From a virus (taxonomy: Duplodnaviria; Heunggongvirae; Uroviricota; Caudoviricetes; Peduoviridae), in IMG/VR virus record IMGVR_UViG_3300029875_000335: a stretch of DNA of 31,966 bases, one strand, 5' to 3'. This document shows, one piece after another, positions 3,510-31,966 of the stretch. Numbering within the stretch: the stretch's first letter is position 1; each line of letters opens with the position of its first letter. The position numbers were made by a program, and so were the translations under genes. The notes below the pieces were generated by a model, which searched no databases, was not told the origin of the DNA, and saw only the letters and a program-made list of their open reading frames with translations.

Positions 3510-5781
3510 AGCCTCCGGGCGTTTTGTCCCTCCGTCAGCATTTGCCGCAGGCACCGGTGAGACGTTTACCGGTGCTTATGCATGGAACGCGCCACGCGAG
3601 GCCGTCGGGCGCGAAAGACCCCTTACACGTGACGAGATGCGTCAGGTGCAAGGTGTTTTATCCACGATTAATCGCCTGCCTTACTTTTTGCGCTCGCTGT
3701 TTACTTCACGCTATGACTACATCCGGCGCAATAAAAGCCCGGTGCACGGGTTTTATTTCCTCACATCCACTTTTCAGCGTCGTTTATGGCCGCGCATTGA
3801 GCGCGTTAATCAGCGCCATGAAATGAACACCGACGCGTCGTTGCTGTTTCTGGCAGAGCGTGACCACTATGCGCGCCTGCCGGGAATGAATGACAAGGAG
3901 CTGAAAAAGTTTGCCGCCCGTATCTCATCGCAGCTTTTCATGATGTATGAGGAACTCAGCGATGCCTGGGTGGATGCGCATGGCGAAAAAGAATCACTGT
4001 TTACGGATGAGGCTCAGGCTCACCTGTATGGTCATGTTGCTGGCGCTGCACGAGCTTTCAATATTTCCCCTCTCTACTGGAAAAAATACCGTAAAGGACA
4101 GATGACCACGAGGCAGGCTTATTCTGCCATTGCCCGTCTGTTTAACGATGAGTGGTGGACTCATCAGCTTAAAGGCCAGCGTATGCGCTGGCATGAGGCG
4201 TTACTGATTGCTGTCGGGGAGGTCAATAAAGACCGTTCTCCTTATGCCAGTAAACATGCCATTCGTGATGTGCGTGCGCGCCGCCAGGCAAATCTGGAGT
4301 TTCTTAAATCATGTGACCTTGAAAACAGGGAAACCGGCGAGCGCATCGACCTTATCAGTAAGGTGATGGGCAGTATTTCTAATCCTGAAATTCGCCGGAT
4401 GGAGCTGATGAACACCATTGCCGGTATTGAGCGTTACGCCGCCGCAGAGGGTGATGTGGGGATGTTTATCACGCTGACCACGCCGTCAAAGTATCACCCG
4501 ACACGTCAGGTCGGAAAAGGAGAAAGTAAAACCGTCCAGCTTAATCACGGCTGGAACGATGAGGCATTTAATCCAAAGGATGCGCAGCGTTATCTCTGCC
4601 GCATCTGGAGCCTGATGCGCACGGCATTCAAGGATAATGATTTACAGGTCTACGGTTTGCGTGTCGTCGAGCCCCACCACGACGGAACGCCGCACTGGCA
4701 TATGATGCTTTTTTGTCATCCACGCCAGCGTAACCAGATTATCGAAATCATGCGTCGCTATGCGCTCAAAGAGGATGGTGACGAAAGAGGAGCCGCGCGA
4801 AACCGTTTTCAGGCAAAGCACCTTAACCGGGGCGGTGCTGCGGGATATATCGCGAAATACATTTCAAAAAACATCGACGGCTATGCACTGGATGGTCAGC
4901 TCGATAACGATACCGGCAGGCCGCTGAAAGACACTGCCGCGGCTGTTACCGCATGGGCGTCAACGTGGCGCATTCCGCAATTTAAAACGGTTGGCCTGCC
5001 GACAATGGGGGCTTACCGTGAACTACGCAAATTGCCTCGCGGCGTCAGCATTGCTGATGAGTTTGACGAACGCGTCGAGGCTGCACGCGCTGCCGCAGAC
5101 AGTGGTGATTTTGCGTTGTATATCAGCGCGCAGGGTGGGGCAAATGTTCCGCGCGATTGTCAGACTGTCAGGGTTGCCCGTAGCCCGTCGGATGAAGTTA
5201 ACGAGTACGAGGAAGAAGTCGAGAGAGTGGTCGGCATTTACGCGCCGCATCTCGGCGCGCGTCATATTCATATCACCAGAACGACGGACTGGCGCATTGT
5301 TCCGAAAGTGCCGGTCGTTGAGCCTTTGACTTTAAAAAGCGGCATCGCCGCGCCTCGGAGTCCTGTCAATAACTGTGGAAAGCTCACCGGTGGTGATACT
5401 TCGTTACCGGCTCCCACGCCTTCTGAGCACGCCGCAGCAGTGCTTAATCTGGTTGATGACGGTGTTATCGAATGGAATGACCCGGAGGTCGTGAGGGCGC
5501 TCAGGGGCGCATTAAAACACGGCCTGAGAAGACCAAACCGTCAGCAAAGAAACGGAAGCCCGTTAAAACCGCATGAAATAGCGCCATCGGCCAGACTGAC
5601 CCGGTCGGAAAGAATGCAAATTACCCGTATCCGCGTTGACCTTGCTCAGAACGGTATCAGGCCGCAGCGATGGGAGCTTGAGGCGCTGGCGCGTGGTGCG
5701 ACCGTAAATTACAACGGGAAAAAATTTACGTATCCGGTCGCTGATGAGTGGAGTTGGTTTTATTGTTATTCAGAGCAATAA
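3499..5781 (+). CDS. A: Replication initiation protein A (rolling-circle HUH endonuclease)
   Basis: 760-aa product from the ATG at 3499 (MAVKASGRF...), matching P2 gpA in length; HUH-like motif EPHHDGTPHWHMMLF and active-site tyrosine region GYIAKYISKN. Confidence 0.9.
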   Translation: MAVKASGRFVPPSAFAAGTGETFTGAYAWNAPREAVGRERPLTRDEMRQVQGVLSTINRLPYFLRSLFTSRYDYIRRNKSPVHGFYFLTSTFQRRLWPRIERVNQRHEMNTDASLLFLAERDHYARLPGMNDKELKKFAARISSQLFMMYEELSDAWVDAHGEKESLFTDEAQAHLYGHVAGAARAFNISPLYWKKYRKGQMTTRQAYSAIARLFNDEWWTHQLKGQRMRWHEALLIAVGEVNKDRSPYASKHAIRDVRARRQANLEFLKSCDLENRETGERIDLISKVMGSISNPEIRRMELMNTIAGIERYAAAEGDVGMFITLTTPSKYHPTRQVGKGESKTVQLNHGWNDEAFNPKDAQRYLCRIWSLMRTAFKDNDLQVYGLRVVEPHHDGTPHWHMMLFCHPRQRNQIIEIMRRYALKEDGDERGAARNRFQAKHLNRGGAAGYIAKYISKNIDGYALDGQLDNDTGRPLKDTAAAVTAWASTWRIPQFKTVGLPTMGAYRELRKLPRGVSIADEFDERVEAARAAADSGDFALYISAQGGANVPRDCQTVRVARSPSDEVNEYEEEVERVVGIYAPHLGARHIHITRTTDWRIVPKVPVVEPLTLKSGIAAPRSPVNNCGKLTGGDTSLPAPTPSEHAAAVLNLVDDGVIEWNDPEVVRALRGALKHGLRRPNRQQRNGSPLKPHEIAPSARLTRSERMQITRIRVDLAQNGIRPQRWELEALARGATVNYNGKKFTYPVADEWSWFYCYSEQ

Positions 5782-5853
5782 ACATCTGATTTAATTTGTT
5801 GCATAATAGTAAAATTGCTGTTTATCTGCATGTGTTAACTATTGATAATTATG

Positions 5854-5881
5854 TTGCTAATAATGTGTGCAAATTTATACT
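5854..5881 (+). promoter_or_regulatory. Putative sigma70 promoter for cargo gene 1
   Basis: TTGCTA, 16-nt spacer, TATACT, then AAGGTG RBS 6 nt upstream of the ATG at 5898. Confidence 0.35.
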
Positions 5882-5897
5882 GAAAAAGGTGAAAACG

Positions 5898-7730
5898 ATG
5901 AATGATATCTTTGTTCTTACAAGGGAAGAGCTTGAAACACTAGATTATAGTGTTTTTATGCATATACCAGTTACATTTCATGCACATAAAATAAAAAAAT
6001 ATCTGGATGGGATTGCTGAATCATCAGAAAACCCCAAAGAGAAAAAATTAGCATCTCTTTTTGGTATGCTATATAGTTTCAATTTGCAAGTTGTTAACAA
6101 CACTCCATCATTTGAACCCCAAATGATTTGGGGTAATAAAAGATCAATATTGCCTGAAGATTTTGATGAGCAGGTGAATGACTGTCTTTTATATGTTTCT
6201 CAAAAAATAACCAATCCATTTTTGTTATCAAGAATATATGATGTTGTTTGGTGTAATAATCGGAAAAATAAAGACGTGGCAATTAAAGCAATTGATTCCT
6301 ATGCTGAAATGCTAAATATAGCAATTGAAAAGCTAATAATAAAAAACGAAAGCATGGATGAAAGTGATTTAAATTGCTTTATTTTTGCTCGTGATTATAT
6401 TGCTAGGGCTTTGCACATTAATAAAATGGTCTACCCTAGAAAATCAGAAGGAAACATGGCGATTAAAAATGCCATTCATTCTCTTTATAGTATTCAAAAT
6501 GAAAGATTAATCTTTGAAGGTTTCAATAATTTGACTTGGTTTATGGTGCGTGATTTTGATGGGTATAATCTGCAGTATGCGGAAAATGCTGAGAAGATGG
6601 CTGAGCAGCATAAAGATAAAAAATATTATGATGCTGTAAAATCACTTTATATGACAAGTGCAGTTATTTATGAAAAAAATGGTGAGTATGAACGTGCCAA
6701 GAGATGTAAACTGGCATCTGCAAATATTACTATTAAAGTTGCAACAGATCGACCTGATAATATGGGTAAGATCTCTTGGTTAAGAACAGCTATCTCTGAA
6801 TTAAGACAGTACGGTGGTGATAGCCAACAGATAGAAGATTTAAAGGAACAACTTGCTAATTTGAGAGAAGAAGTAAGGAGTGAATATGTCACTTTAAGCC
6901 ATTCTATTGATATTAGTGACTTGGTTGCTGAAAGTGAAAAAAAACTGACGGGGCGTTCTTTGCCCGATATATTCAAAGTTTTAATGAGTGAAACACCGAT
7001 TGAAAATATTGAAAGCATGAGGGAACAAGTTTTAAAATTATCAGAAAAAAGTTTATTCTCTAGTTTTGTTGGAACAGAAATTAATGATGAGAGTGGGCGT
7101 AAGATATATACAATCCCGCCGTTGGATAATAAAAAAGATATGAGTGATGATGTTGTTATTGATCAATATCTAAGAAATTTCGAGATTACTCATAAGATTT
7201 TTGTAAACGGTGTCTTTGAACCTGCTCGCTATGTACTTTCTCAAGAACATGGCTTGACGTTGTCAACATTCGTTAAATTGGTTACAACTAGTCCAATTGT
7301 CAAGCCGGAGTTTAGGGAGATTTTTAATTTGGGCTTTTACAAATTATGGCAGGGAGATTACATCAGTGCAGCTTATCTTTTAATACCACAAATGGAAGGT
7401 ATGGTTCGTTATTATTATGAGCTTAGCGGAAAGGATGCTACTAGATATTTGGATAAGGGATTAGAGGAGTCAACAAGTATTTCTCAGCTTCTAGATAAAT
7501 GCAGAGATGATTTGGAAAGTATCTTTTCTAAAAATCTTGTTTTGACTATCGATGTTCTTTTTAACAGAAAGAGTGGGGCAACCTTAAGACATAAATTAGC
7601 ACATGGTAATTTATATACTAATGCTTGTTACGATGAAACAACGACATATGCATGCATCCTGATTTTCTTTCTGTGTGCTTATCCTCTCCTACCATATTTT
7701 GATACTGTTTTTGAACAGGGCTCTGTTTGA
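5898..7730 (+). CDS. AT-rich orphan cargo protein at the tin/old locus; candidate anti-phage protein
   Basis: 610-aa ORF between A and cos, visibly low in GC against the backbone; own promoter and RBS; no Walker A P-loop, so not Old-like; R-H-K-L-A-H (R-x4-H) at residues 564-569 (7587..7604). The upstream TTG at 5796 is an unlikely start. Confidence 0.75.
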   Translation: MNDIFVLTREELETLDYSVFMHIPVTFHAHKIKKYLDGIAESSENPKEKKLASLFGMLYSFNLQVVNNTPSFEPQMIWGNKRSILPEDFDEQVNDCLLYVSQKITNPFLLSRIYDVVWCNNRKNKDVAIKAIDSYAEMLNIAIEKLIIKNESMDESDLNCFIFARDYIARALHINKMVYPRKSEGNMAIKNAIHSLYSIQNERLIFEGFNNLTWFMVRDFDGYNLQYAENAEKMAEQHKDKKYYDAVKSLYMTSAVIYEKNGEYERAKRCKLASANITIKVATDRPDNMGKISWLRTAISELRQYGGDSQQIEDLKEQLANLREEVRSEYVTLSHSIDISDLVAESEKKLTGRSLPDIFKVLMSETPIENIESMREQVLKLSEKSLFSSFVGTEINDESGRKIYTIPPLDNKKDMSDDVVIDQYLRNFEITHKIFVNGVFEPARYVLSQEHGLTLSTFVKLVTTSPIVKPEFREIFNLGFYKLWQGDYISAAYLLIPQMEGMVRYYYELSGKDATRYLDKGLEESTSISQLLDKCRDDLESIFSKNLVLTIDVLFNRKSGATLRHKLAHGNLYTNACYDETTTYACILIFFLCAYPLLPYFDTVFEQGSV

Positions 7731-7881
7731 TAACGTATACGTTGAGGCATAAAACCTATGCATACTTAGCTGCATCAATTTGCACGAGGTATTTCAGTAT
7801 GCATTTTCTGCGTAATAGTAGGGATTGCTTGGTTTGGTAGTTGTAATTCAACTGCATTCAAACCGACCCATGAAGCGGGCG

Positions 7882-7900
7882 GGCGAGGCGGGGAAAGCAC
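7882..7900. other. cos site (19-nt cohesive end, phage genome termini)
   Basis: GGCGAGGCGGGGAAAGCAC matches the P2 cohesive-end sequence as I recall it; located between the A-side cargo and Q as expected for an integrated P2. Confidence 0.7.
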
Positions 7901-8040
7901 TGCGCGCTGGCGGTGGTGCTGATTTTATTTTTTCAGCGTCTGAGCGCGTCGTGATGGCGTTTAGATTGTGCGTCGGGGCGTTGGTGTGTCTAAGGGGTGT
8001 TTTGTGCTGTGGTGAGCGTGTGAGGGCGTGATGACGGGGT

Positions 8041-8064
8041 GTAAAAAAGCCGCCCGCAGGCGGC
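8041..8064 (-). terminator. Rho-independent terminator downstream of Q
   Basis: GC hairpin GCCGCC-CGCA-GGCGGC (8049..8064) followed on the minus strand by a U-run (A6 at 8043..8048), just past the Q stop. Confidence 0.55.
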
Positions 8065-8069
8065 GATGT

Positions 8070-9104
8070 TCAGCCGTTGTCAGTGTCCAGTGAGTAGTTT
8101 TTAAAGCGGATGACCTCCTGACCGAGCCAGCCGTTTATCTCGCGGATCCTGTCCTGTAGCGGGATAAGCTCATTGCGGACAAAGACCTTTGCCACTTTCT
8201 CAATATCACCCAGCGACCCGACGTTCTCCGGCTTGCCGCCCATCAACTGAAAGGGGATGCGGTGCGCGTCCAGCAGGTCAGCGGCGCTGGCTTTTTTGAT
8301 ATTAAAAAAATCGTCCTTCGTTGCCACTTCACTGAGCGGGATAATTTTAATGCCGTCGGCTTTCCCCTGCGGAGCATAGAGAAACAGATTTTTAAAGTTG
8401 TTGCGGCCTTTCGACTTGACCATGTTTTCGCGAAGCATTTCGATATCGTTGCGATCCTGCACGGCATCGGTGACGTACATGATATATCCGGCATGAGCGC
8501 CATTTTCGTAATACTTGCGGCGGAACAGCGTGGCCGACTCATTCAGCCAGGCAGAATTAAGGGCGCTGAGATATTCCGGCAGGCCGTACAGCTCCTGATT
8601 AATATCCGGCTCCAGCAGGTGAAACACGGAACCGGGCGCGAAGGCTGTCGGCTCGTTGAAGGACGGCACCCACCAGTAAACATCCTCTTCCACACCACGG
8701 CGGGTATATTTTGCCGGTGAGGTTTCCAGTCTGATGACCTTACCGGTGGTGCTGTAACGCTTTTCCAGAAACGCATTACCGAACACCAGAAAATCCAGCA
8801 CAAAGCGGCTGAAATCCTGCTGGGAAAGCCACGGGTGCGGGATAAACGTTGAAGCCAGAATATTACGTTTGACGTAAATCGGTGAGCTGTGATGCACGGC
8901 AGCACGCAGACTTTTTGCCAGACCGGTAAAGCTGACCGGTGGCTCATACCATCTGCCGTTACTGATGCATTCGACGTAATCCAGAATGTCACGGCGGTCG
9001 AGTACCGGCACTGGCTCACCAAAGGTGAATGCCTCCATTTTCGGGGCGCTGGCGGTCATTTTTTTTGCCGCAGGTTGCGGTGTTTTCCCTTTTTTCTTGC
9101 TCAT
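8070..9104 (-). CDS. Q: Portal protein
   Basis: 344 aa, length and position identical to P2 gpQ; leftward operon with P. Confidence 0.9.
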   Translation of the reverse strand: MSKKKGKTPQPAAKKMTASAPKMEAFTFGEPVPVLDRRDILDYVECISNGRWYEPPVSFTGLAKSLRAAVHHSSPIYVKRNILASTFIPHPWLSQQDFSRFVLDFLVFGNAFLEKRYSTTGKVIRLETSPAKYTRRGVEEDVYWWVPSFNEPTAFAPGSVFHLLEPDINQELYGLPEYLSALNSAWLNESATLFRRKYYENGAHAGYIMYVTDAVQDRNDIEMLRENMVKSKGRNNFKNLFLYAPQGKADGIKIIPLSEVATKDDFFNIKKASAADLLDAHRIPFQLMGGKPENVGSLGDIEKVAKVFVRNELIPLQDRIREINGWLGQEVIRFKNYSLDTDNG

Positions 9105-10876
9105 CAGTAAAACTCCAGAATGGTGGATGTCAGCGGGGTGCTGATACCGGCGGTGAGTGGCTCATTTAACAGGGCGTGCATGGTCGCCCAGGCGAGGTCG
9201 GCGTGGCTGGCTTCCTCGCTGCGGCTGGCCTCATAGGTGGCACTGCGTCCGCTGCTGGTCATGGTCTTGCGGATAGCCATAAACGAGCTGGTGATGTCGG
9301 TGGCGCTGACGTCGTATTCCAGACAGCCACGACGGATAACGTCTTTTGCCTTGAGCACCATTGCGGTTTTCATTTCCGGCGTGTAGCGGATGTCGCGCGC
9401 GGCGGGATAGAACGAGCGCACGAGCTGGAACACACCGACACCGAGGCCGGTGGCATCAATTCCGATGTATTCGACGTTGTATTTTTCGGTGAGTTTGCGG
9501 ATGGATTCAGCCTGAGTGGCAAAGTCCATGCCTTTCCACTGGTGACGCTCAAGTATTCTGAATTTGCCACCGGCCACCACCGGCGGTGCCAGCACCACGC
9601 ATCCGGCACTGTCGCCACGGTGTGACGGGTCGTAACCAATCCATACCGGACGGGAGCCGAACGGATTGGCGGCAAACGGCGCATAGTCTTCCCATTCTTC
9701 CAGCGTGTCGACCATGCAGCGTTGCAGCTCCTCGAACGGGAATACCGACGCCTTGTCGTCAACAAATTCACACATGAACAGGTTTTTAAAATCGTCGGCG
9801 CTGTTTTCGCGTTTGAGCTGTTCAATGTCGAACAGCGTGCAGCCGCCTTTCAGCGCGTCCTCAATGGTGACAATCTGCCGCCACTGACCGTCCGCACAGA
9901 GAAGCCCACCGGCAAGGGCGTTATGACTGACGTCGATTTCCACGCGTTCGGTGGCGCTGGCGCGTCCCCGGTTGAACAGTTCACCCGACCAGAACGGGTA
10001 GGCGTCGTGCGCCAGCGTGGACGGGGTGGAGAAATAGGTCGAGCGCAGGTGACTCTGTGAGGCCATACCTGATGCCACCTTACGCAGTACCTGAAAATTC
10101 GGGATCCAGAAAATCTCGTCGACGTACAGGTCGCCGTTATGGCTCTGTGCGGTGTTGGAGTTGGTGCCGAGAAAAATCAGTTTTGCGCCGTTATTGCCCA
10201 GGACAATCGGGTCACCAGTCAGGTCAACGTCAACCAGCCGGGCAAAGGCGATGATGTATTCGCGGAACACATGCGCCTGCGTTTTACTGGCCGACAGAAA
10301 AATCTGGTTATGGCCGGTTTTCAGGGCGCGCAGCAGCGCCTCACGGGAAAAATAAAACGTCGCGCCAATCTGACGGGATTTCAGGATATCGCGGATGCGG
10401 TGCTCAAGCCCGGCGCGATACCAGTGCAACTGATAGTCGAAAGACTGCTCAAAGAAAATCTGCTCCAGCTTTTCGATAGCCTCGTCACTGAAAAAATTCT
10501 TTTTCGGTTTGCGCCGCCCGCCTTTGTTGCGGTTAGCAACGTTCGGATTAAGGTCTGCCTCGTTGCCGGTCTGACTGTAACGGTTGACCCGTGCCAGTCG
10601 TTCAATCTGGCGTCCCAGCAGGTCAATTTCCTTGAAGTCACCGCCGGTTTTCTGCGGTTTGATGATGAGCTGGGTCAGTCGCGCTTCCAGACTCATTTCG
10701 ACACGGCTGATGGGGGCAACGCTGTCCCAGCCGTCGCGCTGTTTCCAGCTCTGCACCGTCGGACGTTTCATCTGCAATATGGCGGCAATCTGCGGCACGG
10801 AAAACCCCTGCCAGTACAGCAGCGCCGCCTGACGACGCGGGTCGTGTAAAAGAGTGGTGTCTGTGGTGATGGTCAT
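9104..10876 (-). CDS. P: Terminase large (ATPase) subunit
   Basis: 590 aa from the ATG at 10876 (GAGG RBS); the longer ORF to 10906 starts with TTG. Matches P2 gpP length. Confidence 0.9.
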   Translation of the reverse strand: MTITTDTTLLHDPRRQAALLYWQGFSVPQIAAILQMKRPTVQSWKQRDGWDSVAPISRVEMSLEARLTQLIIKPQKTGGDFKEIDLLGRQIERLARVNRYSQTGNEADLNPNVANRNKGGRRKPKKNFFSDEAIEKLEQIFFEQSFDYQLHWYRAGLEHRIRDILKSRQIGATFYFSREALLRALKTGHNQIFLSASKTQAHVFREYIIAFARLVDVDLTGDPIVLGNNGAKLIFLGTNSNTAQSHNGDLYVDEIFWIPNFQVLRKVASGMASQSHLRSTYFSTPSTLAHDAYPFWSGELFNRGRASATERVEIDVSHNALAGGLLCADGQWRQIVTIEDALKGGCTLFDIEQLKRENSADDFKNLFMCEFVDDKASVFPFEELQRCMVDTLEEWEDYAPFAANPFGSRPVWIGYDPSHRGDSAGCVVLAPPVVAGGKFRILERHQWKGMDFATQAESIRKLTEKYNVEYIGIDATGLGVGVFQLVRSFYPAARDIRYTPEMKTAMVLKAKDVIRRGCLEYDVSATDITSSFMAIRKTMTSSGRSATYEASRSEEASHADLAWATMHALLNEPLTAGISTPLTSTILEFY

Positions 10877-22481: not shown

Positions 22482-23009
22482 ATGCAGCATTTAAAAAACA
22501 TTAAGTCAGGTAATCCAAAAACAAAAGAACAATATCAGCTAACAAAGAATTTTGATGTTATCTGGTTATGGTCCGAAGACGGAAAAAACTGGTATGAGGA
22601 AGTAAGTAATTTTCAGGAAGACACGATAAAGATTGTTTACGATGAAAATAATATTATTGTCGGCATCACCAGAGATGCTTCAACGCTCAACCCTGAAGGT
22701 TTCAGCGTTGTCGAGGTTCCTGATATTACCGCCAACCGACGTGCTGATGACTCAGGGAAATGGATGTTTAAGGATGGTGCCGTGATTAAGCGGATTTATA
22801 CGGCAGACGAACAGCAACAACAGGCAGAATCACAAAAGGCCGCGTTACTTTCCGAAGCGGAAAGCGTTATTCAGCCACTGGAGCGCGCTGTCAGGCTGAA
22901 CATGGCAACAGATGAGGAGCGTAGCCGACTGGAAGCATGGGAACGCTACAGTGTTCTGGTCAGCCGTGTGGATCCTGCAAATCCTGAATGGCCGGAAATG
23001 CCGCAATAA
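22482..23009 (+). CDS. G: Tail fibre assembly chaperone
   Basis: 175 aa directly after H; C-terminal ...[12 protein letters not shown] typical of tail fibre assembly proteins; matches P2 gpG length. Confidence 0.85.
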
Positions 23010-23398
23010 GTGATATGATCTCTTGTGTTAGTTAACATAGCTATAGTACAGAGTAAGGCCTAATCTGACAGTCCGCTCTGTGCTAGGAGCGGACATTATC
23101 AACATCATGCTATGTTAATGTATAAAGTGAAGATAAATTGATATAATAAGGCCACCATGAATATTTCAGAACCTTGTCAAAAGGTTTGCACATACTCTAG
23201 TCTTGCAATGTGTAGTTGATAGTTCCACTGAGGAGGTTCTTCGACATTCTTTATAAAAATGTACATTTTCATCAATAATAAGAGGTAAAAGGGCTTTAAT
23301 AGTTTTTTGTGGATGTTATGTCCACTCATAAATTTTGAGATAAGTATTGAGTTGAGATAAAGTTAAACTCGTTAAATTCACCTTTAAAAGGATAAAGC

Positions 23399-23926
23399 AT
23401 GGACTGGAAAGATCTTGCATCAACCGCTGTGTATACAGGTATGACTGATGAAAATGAAAACATATGGGGACGTGTTGATGGGGTTGACGTTGCCTTCATA
23501 GGTGCCTTTCTTACTGCGCACTTGAGCCTTGAAAAGTATATTACTGATTATCTTGGATTAAGATATCCTTCGTTAGCTTGGGGTGATGCAAAACTCACAT
23601 TTTCACAAAAAATAGCTTTAATACAACATGAGCCTGCAAAACCCCCTTATGATGAAATATATTTAAGAATAAAAGACTTTAACAGCATAAGAAATAAAAT
23701 CAGTCATCAATTGAATTATCAGATTACGGATAAAGAAAAAAGTAAGTTTGTGGACTTCTACATGAAGATTACTAAAGCCAGTAAAACTAAACCAAATATT
23801 GATATTGATAACATGGCGGATTTGTTGGATTTTTTCGTATCGATGACAAAATCCTATTTTGCTAGTGCTATTTCTTATTATCACTATAATAAAAAGGTTG
23901 CAGGTAAAAGTAATAAAATTGATTAA
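23399..23926 (+). CDS. AT-rich orphan cargo protein at the Z/fun locus; candidate anti-phage / lysogenic-conversion protein
   Basis: 175-aa ORF in a strongly AT-rich island between G and FI; AAGGA RBS; R-N-K-I-S-H (R-N-x3-H) at residues 98-103 (23690..23707). Confidence 0.75.
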   Translation: MDWKDLASTAVYTGMTDENENIWGRVDGVDVAFIGAFLTAHLSLEKYITDYLGLRYPSLAWGDAKLTFSQKIALIQHEPAKPPYDEIYLRIKDFNSIRNKISHQLNYQITDKEKSKFVDFYMKITKASKTKPNIDIDNMADLLDFFVSMTKSYFASAISYYHYNKKVAGKSNKID

Positions 23927-24101
23927 TAAAACTGGACTTAGGGATAATTAATATATAGACGTTCTATCATTTTTAGAGTGTGCGGCAGCTCCATACATTC
24001 ATGCGGATGTCAGCACCTCGCTCAAAGCAGACAGTCAGATTTGATAGCGTTTGGACTATGTAAATAGTCAGTTGGAAAATGAGTGAGTACAAATCAGGAC
24101 A

Positions 24102-24129
24102 GGCGGGCGAATTGCCCGCCTTTTCTTTA
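24102..24129 (+). terminator. Rho-independent terminator upstream of FI
   Basis: Hairpin GGCGGGCGAATTGCCCGCC (24102..24120) followed by TTTTCTTTAT. Confidence 0.6.
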
Positions 24130-24224
24130 TCTGTTGTTTCATCCACTGACCAGCCAGGTCAAATAGCGCCTCATACTCTGCACAACAGAAAATAATTGCA
24201 CCCATTAACCACGGAGTTAAACGG

Positions 24225-30982: not shown

Positions 30983-31063
30983 ATCCTCAATTTGCCTGTT
31001 GCTTAATGCATTGCAGATGATTTGCTTCCGTTATACTACCGTCAGTTGATAGCGGGAGTATTT

Positions 31064-31966
31064 ATGAATCAATCTTATGGACGGCTGGTCAGCCGGGCGG
31101 CGATTGCTGCGACGGCGATGGCTTCGCTGCTATTGCTGATTAAAATTTTTGCATGGTGGTATACCGGTTCGGTGAGTATTCTCGCCGCGCTTGTCGACTC
31201 GTTGGTGGATATTGGTGCGTCACTGACCAATTTATTGGTGGTGCGTTATTCGTTGCAACCGGCGGATGACGAACATACTTTTGGTCATGGTAAAGCGGAA
31301 TCCCTGGCTGCGTTGGCGCAAAGTATGTTTATCTCTGGTTCGGCGTTGTTTTTGTTTTTAACCGGGATCCAACATCTGATTTCACCGACGCCAATGAATG
31401 ATCCTGGTGTCGGTATTATCGTCACAATTGTCGCGTTAGTTTGCACCATCGTTCTTGTCTCGTTTCAGCGTTGGGTGGTTCGCCGTACACAAAGTCAGGC
31501 GGTGCGTGCAGATATGCTCCATTATCAGTCTGATGTTATGATGAACGGCGCGATTTTGCTGGCACTTGCATTATCCTGGTACGGCTGGCATAGCGCAGAT
31601 GCCCTGTTTGCTTTGGGTATTGGCATCTATATTTTATATAGTGCGTTACGCATGGGGTATGAGGCGGTACAGTCATTGCTGGATCGCGCGTTACCCGATG
31701 AGGAGCGGCAGGAAATTATTGATATCGTGACTTCCTGGCCGGGAGTAAGCGGCGCTCACGATCTTCGCACGCGGCAGTCAGGGCCGACTCGCTTTATTCA
31801 GATTCATTTGGAAATGGAAGACTCTCTGCCTCTGGTTCAGGCGCATATGGTGGCTGATCAGGTAGAGCAGGCTATTTTACGGCGTTTTCCAGGCTCGGAT
31901 GTCATTATTCATCAGGACCCTTGTTCCGTCGTGCCCAGGGAAGGTAAACGGTTTGAGCTATCATAA
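31064..31966 (+). CDS. fieF: Cation-diffusion-facilitator Fe(II)/Zn(II) efflux transporter FieF (YiiP), host gene
   Basis: 300 aa from the ATG at 31064 (GGGAG RBS), [51 protein letters not shown]..., matching E. coli FieF as I recall it; ordinary host-like composition. Confidence 0.85.

What the first reader, a model, noticed from the sequence alone, without database searches (positions are those of the whole stretch)
5782..7881. AT-rich 610-aa orphan gene in the tin/old variable locus between A and cos
Seen in sequence: the backbone gene A ends at 5781 and composition then drops sharply to AT-rich DNA holding one 610-aa ORF (5898..7730) with its own sigma70-like promoter (5854..5881) and RBS; backbone composition resumes at the cos site (7882..7900). 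The protein has no Walker A P-loop, so it is not an Old-type ATPase. It has a coiled-coil-like middle (ISELRQYGGDSQQIEDLKEQLANLREEVRSEY) and R-H-K-L-A-H at residues 564-569. Established knowledge: in P2 this interval carries tin and old, both phage-exclusion genes, and in P2-like prophages it is a recognised hotspot where unrelated anti-phage systems are swapped. Inference: this is a horizontally acquired single-gene defence or abortive-infection candidate, possibly with a C-terminal HEPN-like RNase. The R-x4-H motif alone could occur by chance in a protein this long.
Basis: partly seen in the sequence, partly recalled or inferred. Interest (0 to 1): 0.85.

Follow-up and report, generated by a model that had tools for sequence, protein, structure and literature searches.

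The report
Catalogued putative HEPN RNase, P2 hotspot
The AT-rich gene between A and cos of this P2-like prophage encodes a member of a large, already catalogued protein family with a predicted C-terminal RNA-cutting (HEPN) domain; it is a listed but unconfirmed anti-phage candidate that others have already cloned and tested without detecting protection.

Summary
The sequence observation holds. Gene A ends at 5781 and GC falls from about 0.55 to 0.33. One 610-aa ORF (5898..7730) fills the gap, and the P2 cos lies at 7882-7900.

The protein is not an orphan. It matches Pfam DUF7380 plus a weak DUF4209, PADLOC candidate PDC-S39 (E 7e-85) and phrog_5183. Its family has 3,360 clusters at 50% identity in bacteria and archaea.

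- R564 and H569 are 100% invariant across 134 relatives with a median 23% identity.
- The other two HEPN hallmarks are present: H/N after the Arg, and an upstream E500-x3-R504.

The family has no conserved partner gene.

The novelty claim fails. Rousset et al. 2022 list this exact protein as P2-hotspot system #13 ("DUF4209", 193 loci). They cloned a near-identical allele with its native upstream region (pFR103, "Putative HEPN") and list it among tested but not validated systems.

Best reading: an auto-inhibited single-chain HEPN RNase acting in abortive infection. The function is unproven. Interest is low to moderate.

The parts
5782..5897 (+). AT-rich upstream region of the cargo. It holds a sigma70-like match (TTGCTA-16-TATACT, 5854-5881) and a Shine-Dalgarno AAGGTGA (5886-5892).
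   Evidence: The promoter is a 9/12 consensus match in DNA where such matches are common (14 found, 9.2 expected). Upstream regions of homologous loci are too divergent to test conservation. The region was included in the published construct pFR103.
5898..7730 (+). CDS of 610 aa (RefSeq WP_021535452.1, 'DUF7380 domain-containing protein'); PADLOC candidate PDC-S39; phrog_5183.
   Evidence: The DNA is 100% identical in phage vB_EcoM-569R9 and at least 99% identical in 55 of 5,426 complete E. coli genomes.
5907..6449 (+). N-terminal DUF7380 domain (residues 4-184). Family-wide conserved polar residues are R82, D88, R112, D115, W118, Y135 and R170.
   Evidence: Pfam PF24098: 134.8 bits against a cutoff of 27; 60 of 60 diverse relatives match. 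Residue conservation is 93-98% in 134 sequences.
6450..7124 (+). Helical middle region (about residues 185-409). It is TPR-like/alpha-solenoid and is the most variable part of the family. Boundaries are approximate.
7290..7715 (+). C-terminal HEPN domain (about residues 465-606). It overlaps the Pfam DUF4209 match at residues 524-590.
7395..7409 (+). E500-x3-R504, the upstream acidic 'Ex3[KR]' element of HEPN active sites.
   Evidence: E500 is in 134/134 and R504 in 133/134 relatives. The motif is defined in Anantharaman et al. 2013.
7587..7604 (+). R564-H565-K-L-A-H569, the Rx4H catalytic-type motif of HEPN RNases.
   Evidence: R564 and H569 are in 134/134 relatives. Position 565 is H in 105, N in 26 and D in 2, matching the 'polar N/D/H after R' rule.
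7731..7848 (+). AT-rich 3' tail of the cargo. No ORF, repeat or known RNA was found in it.
   Evidence: The right-hand boundary comes from where similarity to other P2-like phages begins (H2).
7849..7900 (.). Conserved cos flank and the 19-nt P2 cos (7882-7900). This is phage backbone, not cargo.
   Evidence: The same core appears in the P4/P2 clones of Rousset et al..

Best explanation
The gene encodes a stand-alone, single-chain immune-type RNase. An N-terminal DUF7380 domain plus TPR-like helical repeats serve as the sensing or regulatory part. The C-terminal HEPN domain (E500-x3-R504 and R564-x4-H569) is the effector.

In the lysogen the protein would be made from its own promoter and kept inactive. 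On infection by a competing phage, a phage product or an infection-induced change would bind the N-terminal region. That would let two HEPN domains pair into a composite, metal-independent RNase site that cuts host and/or phage RNA (tRNA, rRNA or mRNA). Translation would stop and the infection would abort, which protects the clonal population and the resident P2-like prophage.

Shown here: the hotspot location, the domain architecture, the HEPN fold and the invariant catalytic-type residues, and the absence of any partner gene.

Inferred: RNase activity, auto-inhibition, dimerisation, the trigger, and the anti-phage outcome.
For: - HEPN hallmarks are all present, and they are the most conserved positions in 134 relatives of median 23% identity.
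- DUF4209 is classed as a predicted active HEPN family seen in R-M-related operons and fused to TPR.
- The full-length PADLOC PDC-S39 match has E 7e-85.
- The gene sits in the gpA-portal hotspot, which holds old/tin and many validated systems.
- Homologues of 54-65% identity occupy the same slot in Klebsiella and Kosakonia P2/186-like prophages.
- A second member of only 33% identity (P2-EC46 ORF612, Rousset system #55) is in the same E. coli hotspot. This is the kind of diversification expected of immune genes.
- There is no conserved neighbour in 80 distant loci. Neighbours include integrases, IS elements and scattered defence genes.
- The variable middle and conserved effector end fit a sensor-effector layout.
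- The gene is stably carried in about 1% of E. coli genomes and could be cloned, so it is not constitutively toxic.
Against: - A near-identical allele on a low-copy plasmid with its native upstream region was tested in MG1655 against lambda, T4, P1, 186cIts, CLB_P2, LF82_P8, AL505_P2 and T7. It is listed only among 'additional tested systems', not among validated ones.
- PADLOC's PDC class is by definition unconfirmed.
- The Vassallo functional selection did not recover it: no PD-* model matched.
- The N-terminal domain carries near-invariant charged residues (R82, D88, R112, D115, R170). That is unusual for a rapidly evolving phage sensor and may point to a fixed ligand or RNA-binding site.
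- Enrichment of defence genes among neighbours was not tested against a background.
Confidence: 0.5

Rival explanations
1. It is a non-defence accessory RNase (a 'moron'). The HEPN domain processes or degrades specific cellular or prophage RNAs as part of stress response, RNA quality control or lysogen physiology, in line with the housekeeping-type role predicted for the eukaryotic C6orf70 branch. It does not respond to foreign phages.
For: - No protection was detected in the one published test.
- The P2 hotspot also carries non-defence cargo such as partition systems and cytolethal distending toxin.
- N-terminal residues are near-invariant across very distant taxa, suggesting a conserved ligand instead of a changing phage target.
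- The family is present from Proteobacteria to haloarchaea, often at near-host GC.
- Anantharaman et al. predict an RNA-degradation role at the ER for the eukaryotic members.
Against: - The gene is patchy (about 1% of E. coli genomes) and sits on prophages, plasmids and next to integrases or IS elements. This pattern does not fit a housekeeping function.
- Two members sharing only 33% identity occupy the same hotspot.
- PADLOC lists it as a defence candidate.
Confidence: 0.2
2. It is a weapon in conflicts between mobile elements and not a general phage defence. It would act against P4-like satellites, against other P2-like phages competing for the same host, or against a host defence RNA (counter-defence). 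A panel of unrelated lytic phages would therefore show nothing.
For: - The gene is carried by the phage itself, next to cos.
- Rousset et al. show that hotspot systems can act between close P2 relatives, as with the AC1 system.
- The negative panel contained only one P2-family phage, 186cIts.
Against: [quoted passage not shown] It is not stated explicitly that pFR103 was included in that test.
- Anti-defence genes are rare in P2 elements: 28 of 1,511.
- Most of the family lies outside P2-like phages.
Confidence: 0.12
3. It is an addiction or toxin module that stabilises the prophage, with the N-terminal part acting as a built-in antitoxin.
Against: - There is no separate labile antitoxin, and no second ORF or RNA in the cargo.
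- A fused antitoxin cannot give post-segregational killing in the usual way.
- An integrated prophage needs no such stabilisation.
Confidence: 0.05
4. It is a decaying or silent passenger gene without current function in E. coli.
For: At 33% GC the DNA is a likely target for H-NS-type silencing (inference). No phenotype was seen in the published test.
Against: - The ORF is intact and at least 99% identical in 55 genomes.
- Catalytic-type residues are invariant across the family.
- The same architecture is kept in thousands of clusters.
Confidence: 0.03

Closest known systems
Rousset et al. 2022 P2-hotspot system #13 'DUF4209' / construct pFR103 'Putative HEPN' (E. coli S88)
   Same: It is the same protein. 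The Table S5B sequence begins identically. The S88 allele differs at 3 of the first 399 residues (E44G, S364R, K380R), and the cloned insert corresponds to window 5698-8089. It has the same locus and is also a single gene.
   Different: Nothing of substance differs; there are three SNPs in the first 400 nt of the insert. That study reports no activity for it on eight phages.
PADLOC phage defence candidate PDC-S39
   Same: Near full-length HMM matches with E 7e-85 and 6e-84. It is also a single-gene system.
   Different: PDC entries are candidates whose function is 'not confirmed'. I did not see the evidence on which PADLOC's listing is based.
C6orf70/DUF4209 family of the HEPN superfamily (Anantharaman et al. 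2013)
   Same: It has a C-terminal HEPN with conserved Rx4H and is fused to TPR-like repeats. The family is mainly bacterial, and the authors predict it to be catalytically active.
   Different: The window protein itself scores just under Pfam's DUF4209 threshold (20.0 against 22.3 bits). The eukaryotic members are described as membrane-anchored ER proteins, and no transmembrane segment is evident here. The R-M operon association noted in 2013 is not seen at this locus.
P2-EC46 ORF612 (AM157366.1) = Rousset system #55
   Same: It belongs to the same family with the same 610-612 aa architecture, in the same P2 variable locus in E. coli. Rx4H and Ex3R are conserved.
   Different: Identity is only 33%, so it is a separate lineage of the family that entered the same hotspot.
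Single-chain or TA-type HEPN defence RNases (RnlA/LsoA, AbiA HEPN domain, HEPN-MNT toxin, Csm6, PrrC/RloC, ApeA)
   Different: - No antitoxin partner such as RnlB/LsoB or MNT.
- No CARF domain as in Csm6, no reverse-transcriptase/polymerase domain as in AbiA, and no HEPN_Apea match.
- No P-loop ATPase as in PrrC/RloC.
- The N-terminal DUF7380 is unique to this family.
P2 old and tin (the reference cargo of this locus)
   Same: Same genomic slot between A and cos/Q. Both are phage-exclusion genes expressed from the prophage (established knowledge).
   Different: There is no sequence relation. The only PADLOC hits are PDC-S39 and a weak HTH, and there is no Walker A.

Membership tests
HEPN superfamily | Conserved Rx4-6H motif | tested here: met
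   R564-x4-H569. Both residues are present in 134/134 relatives of median 23% identity. Definition.
HEPN superfamily | Polar residue (N, D or H) immediately after the conserved Arg | tested here: met
   Position 565 is H in 105, N in 26 and D in 2 of 134 sequences. Rule.
HEPN superfamily | Second conserved acidic residue upstream, typically in Ex3[KR] | tested here: met
   E500 in 134/134 and R504 in 133/134 sequences, with spacing x3. Rule.
HEPN superfamily | Four-helix up-and-down bundle, usually with an insert between helices 2 and 3 | tested here: met
HEPN superfamily | Metal-independent RNase activity leaving 2',3'-cyclic phosphate; active site formed by a HEPN dimer | not testable with these tools
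   This needs biochemistry. No multimer prediction tool was available.
Pfam DUF4209 (PF13910) | Score at or above the gathering threshold (22.3 bits) | tested here: inconclusive
   The window protein scores 20.0 bits, E 7e-4, which is below the cutoff. However, 41 of 60 homologues match at E<=1e-3 with best E 1e-12. GenBank annotates the identical phage protein as DUF4209, and Rousset lists it under DUF4209.
Pfam DUF7380 (PF24098) | Score at or above the gathering threshold (27 bits) | tested here: met
   134.8 bits over residues 4-184; 60 of 60 relatives match.
PADLOC PDC-S39 | Match to the PDC-S39 HMMs as a single-gene system | tested here: met
   E 7.1e-85 and 6.2e-84 with near full-length coverage. 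No conserved neighbour.
Validated anti-phage defence system | Experimentally shown reduction of phage infection | not testable with these tools
   Published test of a near-identical allele (pFR103): it is listed among tested but not validated systems, on eight phages. No other experimental report was found.
OLD-family nucleases (P2 Old) | N-terminal ABC-type ATPase with Walker A, plus a TOPRIM domain | tested here: not met
   No [AG]x4GK[ST] motif. No ATPase or TOPRIM Pfam hit. No Old model hit in PADLOC.
HEPN toxin-antitoxin pairs (HEPN-MNT, RnlAB/LsoAB) | Adjacent cognate antitoxin gene | tested here: not met
   There is no second credible ORF in the cargo. The most widely shared neighbour family occurs in 4 of 80 loci.
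Csm6/Csx1 and PrrC/RloC type HEPN RNases | CARF domain (Csm6/Csx1) or P-loop ATPase (PrrC/RloC) N-terminal to the HEPN | tested here: not met
   Pfam finds only DUF7380 and DUF4209. No Walker A.

The most novel reading that the evidence does not exclude
The DUF7380-DUF4209 proteins would be a widespread, still unrecognised class of stand-alone HEPN immune RNases. Their conserved N-terminal pocket (R82, D88, R112, D115, R170) would bind a defined RNA or small-molecule cue instead of a variable phage protein, and their activity would show only against phages outside the small panels used so far. Because DUF4209 is shared with the eukaryotic C6orf70 family (renamed ERMARD, to my own knowledge), working out the bacterial mechanism would give the first biochemical handle on that protein.
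Probability: 0.15. Interest if true: 0.6.

Novelty: already known. Interest (0 to 1): 0.3.

Why it matters
This family is among the more common cargoes of the P2 defence hotspot: 193 of 18,150 loci in Rousset et al., and about 1% of complete E. coli genomes here. It extends to thousands of sequence clusters in bacteria and archaea, yet no function has been shown for it.

A demonstrated HEPN-dependent phenotype would turn a long-listed candidate (PDC-S39) into a real system. It would also add a partner-less sensor-RNase design to the known repertoire.

The gene is neither an orphan nor unexplored, and the obvious experiment has been done once without a positive result.

Tried and rejected
- Old/Tin identity was rejected: no P-loop, and no PADLOC or Pfam hit.
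- NCBIfam gave no family.
- PDB sequence searches with the protein and with the C-terminal profile found nothing meaningful.
- Foldseek against the PDB was not significant. The afdb50 library was not available.
- A profile search of the word-indexed protein database returned the same 20 close relatives.
- The search for related loci failed with the very diverse alignment A2 and worked with A3.
- A search for a hidden partner found nothing: no other credible ORF, no Rfam match (one chance-level hit), and no meaningful repeats.
- Promoter conservation could not be judged because the upstream regions of the Klebsiella, Kosakonia and P2-EC46 loci do not align.
- Literature searches for DUF7380, WP_021535452 and ERMARD+HEPN found nothing. 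No supplements are held for the 2026 NAR P2/P4 paper, and the 2006 Odegrip paper is not held.
- Enrichment of defence genes among neighbours was only counted, not tested against a background.
Full report
**Observation.**
- The window is a P2-like (Peduovirus) prophage running from int (1-1011) to the host fieF-like gene (31022-31966).
- The replication gene A ends at 5781. GC then falls from about 0.55 to 0.30-0.35 and recovers by about 7850.
- A single ORF, ATG 5898 to stop 7730 (610 aa), fills the gap. It is preceded by AAGGTGA at 5886-5892.
- The 19-nt P2 cos lies at 7882-7900.
- There is no Walker A motif, and RHKLAH is at residues 564-569.
- The proposed promoter (5854-5881) is a 9/12 consensus match in DNA where such matches are frequent (14 found, 9.2 expected), so it is plausible but unproven.
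- A single R....H is close to chance for one protein (0.48 expected).

So the sequence-level observation is confirmed, with those two caveats.

**Not an orphan.**
- The protein matches Pfam DUF7380 (134.8 bits) and, just under threshold, DUF4209 (20.0 against 22.3 bits).
- It matches PADLOC's candidate PDC-S39 over nearly its full length (E 7e-85), and phrog_5183 over its full length.
- Identical DNA is in Escherichia phage vB_EcoM-569R9, and DNA at least 99% identical is in 55 of 5,426 complete E. coli genomes. RefSeq names the protein WP_021535452.1.
- An exhaustive profile search finds 3,360 clusters at 50% identity (615 at E<=1e-30), most of them 600-640 aa with the same end-to-end architecture.
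- Members occur in Alpha- and Gammaproteobacteria and Acidobacteria, and on plasmids of Bacillus, Deinococcus, Chloroflexota and haloarchaea.

**Is the C-terminus a HEPN RNase domain?** Anantharaman et al. 2013 assign DUF4209 (their C6orf70 family) to the HEPN superfamily. They give three sequence hallmarks of active HEPN sites: Rx4-6H, a polar N/D/H right after the Arg, and an upstream acidic residue, usually in Ex3[KR]. I tested these on 134 full-length relatives of median 23% identity to the query.
- The only 100% invariant positions in the whole protein are E500, R564 and H569. R504 and P497 are at 99%.
- Position 565 is H (78%), N (19%) or D (1.5%).
- All three hallmarks are therefore met, and they are the most constrained sites of the family.
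- Among 60 diverse relatives, 60 match DUF7380 and 41 match DUF4209 (best E 1e-12).
- A model of residues 410-610 built on 30 diverse sequences is confident (pLDDT 91.7, pTM 0.87).
- Foldseek gives no significant match (best E 0.24), although Csm6 is its most probable hit.

I take the HEPN assignment as well supported, at roughly 0.85-0.9. RNase activity itself is inferred.

**Rest of the protein.**
- Conservation is lowest at residues 141-260 and highest in the HEPN domain. This fits a variable recognition region joined to a conserved effector.
- The DUF7380 part nevertheless carries near-invariant polar residues (R82, D88, R112, D115, W118, Y135, R170). Their role is unexplained and may indicate a fixed ligand or RNA-binding site.

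**Context.**
- Relatives of 54-65% identity in Klebsiella variicola and Kosakonia cowanii lie in the same slot between gpA and the portal gene of P2/186-like prophages. They are equally AT-rich (GC 0.34-0.35).
- A member of only 33% identity, ORF612 of P2-EC46 from ECOR46, occupies the same variable locus.
- In 80 distant loci there is no conserved neighbour: the most widely shared family occurs in 4 loci.
- Immediate neighbours are heterogeneous. They include integrases, resolvases, IS66, HTH regulators and a scatter of defence genes (AbiJ, Abi_C, PIN, DUF4238, IetS, several PDC models).
- Within the cargo there is no second credible ORF, no Rfam match and no meaningful repeat.

The gene is a stand-alone unit carried on mobile elements.

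**What is already published.**
- Table S5B of Rousset et al. 2022 lists this exact protein as P2-hotspot system #13, 'DUF4209', with 193 occurrences among 18,150 loci. The ORF612-type protein is system #55 with 76 occurrences.
- Their Table S2B contains pFR103, 'Putative HEPN', from E. coli S88. The insert starts at window 5698 and its reverse primer maps to 8070-8089. It has three SNPs in the first 400 nt, and the protein differs at three of the first 399 residues.
- Table S2A holds the validated systems and S2B the 'additional tested systems'. Of eight extra P2-hotspot systems cloned with native promoters on a pSC101 vector, only three were active (DUF4238, a three-gene system, and DprA-PRTase).
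- The panel was lambda, T4, P1, 186cIts, CLB_P2, LF82_P8, AL505_P2 and T7 in MG1655.
- PADLOC's PDC class is explicitly unconfirmed, and other papers only list PDC-S39 in genome inventories.
- The protein matches none of PADLOC's PD-* models from the Vassallo selection.
- I found no experimental report on the family.

**Mechanism.** My best-supported reading (confidence about 0.5) is an auto-inhibited single-chain HEPN RNase.
- The DUF7380/TPR-like part senses an infection cue.
- HEPN domains then pair and cleave RNA, and the infection aborts.
- The architecture, the fold, the catalytic-type residues, the hotspot location and the lack of a partner gene are shown. Activity, regulation, trigger and outcome are inferred.
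- The published negative test lowers but does not remove this reading. The panel was small, 5 of the 8 extra P2 systems were also negative, and DNA at 33% GC under its native promoter may be poorly expressed in K-12 (inference).

Rivals are a non-defence accessory RNase (0.2), a weapon aimed at satellites, P2 relatives or host defence RNAs (0.12), an addiction module (0.05) and a silent passenger (0.03).

**Comparison and novelty.**
- The protein works like other HEPN defence RNases but is not a member of their families. It has no antitoxin (RnlAB/LsoAB, HEPN-MNT), no CARF domain (Csm6/Csx1), no P-loop ATPase (PrrC/RloC, Old) and no HEPN_Apea or reverse-transcriptase-type domain.
- It is a member of DUF7380/DUF4209 and of PADLOC PDC-S39.
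- Because the same protein is already catalogued, flagged as a putative HEPN, cloned and tested, I rate it 'already known' as an uncharacterised candidate, with interest 0.3.
- The remaining value is that a common and very widespread family still lacks a function.

**Noticed in passing.** A second AT-rich island (about 23000-24150) lies at the fun/Z position, which Vassallo et al. call the second P2 defence hotspot. It holds a 175-aa ORF with no Pfam or PADLOC match.

Noticed in passing
window 23000-24150 (ORF 23399..23926, + strand): A second AT-rich island (GC 0.28-0.37, against 0.5-0.59 in the flanks) lies between tail-fibre assembly gene G (22482-23009) and sheath gene FI (24225-). It holds one 175-aa ORF with no Pfam and no PADLOC match, only phrog_5483 'unknown function' (E 6e-60). 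This is the fun/Z position, which Vassallo et al. 2022 describe as a second defence-enriched locus of P2-like phages. It may be a less explored candidate than the main finding.
   Followed up: partly
window residues 82-170 of the 610-aa protein (nt about 6141-6407): The N-terminal DUF7380 domain has polar residues conserved at 93-98% across relatives of about 23% identity (R82, D88, R112, D115, W118, Y135, R170). This is unexpected for a variable phage sensor and suggests a second functional site.
   Followed up: partly
L088 (AM157366.1, P2-EC46 ORF612) and Rousset Table S5B systems #13 and #55: Two lineages of the same family sharing only 33% identity occupy the same P2 hotspot in E. coli (193 and 76 loci). 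This indicates repeated capture or long diversification at this site.
   Followed up: partly
L089 (NZ_CP019203.1, Salmonella Infantis 'plasmid' pCFSAN003307, 71684-91513): A 99.3% identical copy sits in a P2-like prophage next to cpxA/cpxR/cpxP on a record labelled as a 178-kb plasmid. This is the same chromosomal cpxP-side attachment context as in ON470601, so the record may be a misassigned chromosomal segment.
   Followed up: no
window 7825..8031 (+), 68-aa TTG ORF: GenBank record ON470601 annotates a 'hypothetical protein' here (record 9369-9566). It runs across the cos site and the GC-rich cos flank and is very unlikely to be a real gene.
   Followed up: no
window 5796/5799 versus 5898 start codons: GenBank (ON470601) and the 632-aa cluster representative P0001 use upstream starts. 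RefSeq, the Shine-Dalgarno sequence and the aligned N-termini of homologues support ATG 5898.
   Followed up: yes
literature (PMC11878078): PADLOC reports a PDC-S39 hit in Pseudomonas aeruginosa PAO1. A family member therefore exists in a standard laboratory strain with ready genetics, which could make functional tests easy.
   Followed up: no
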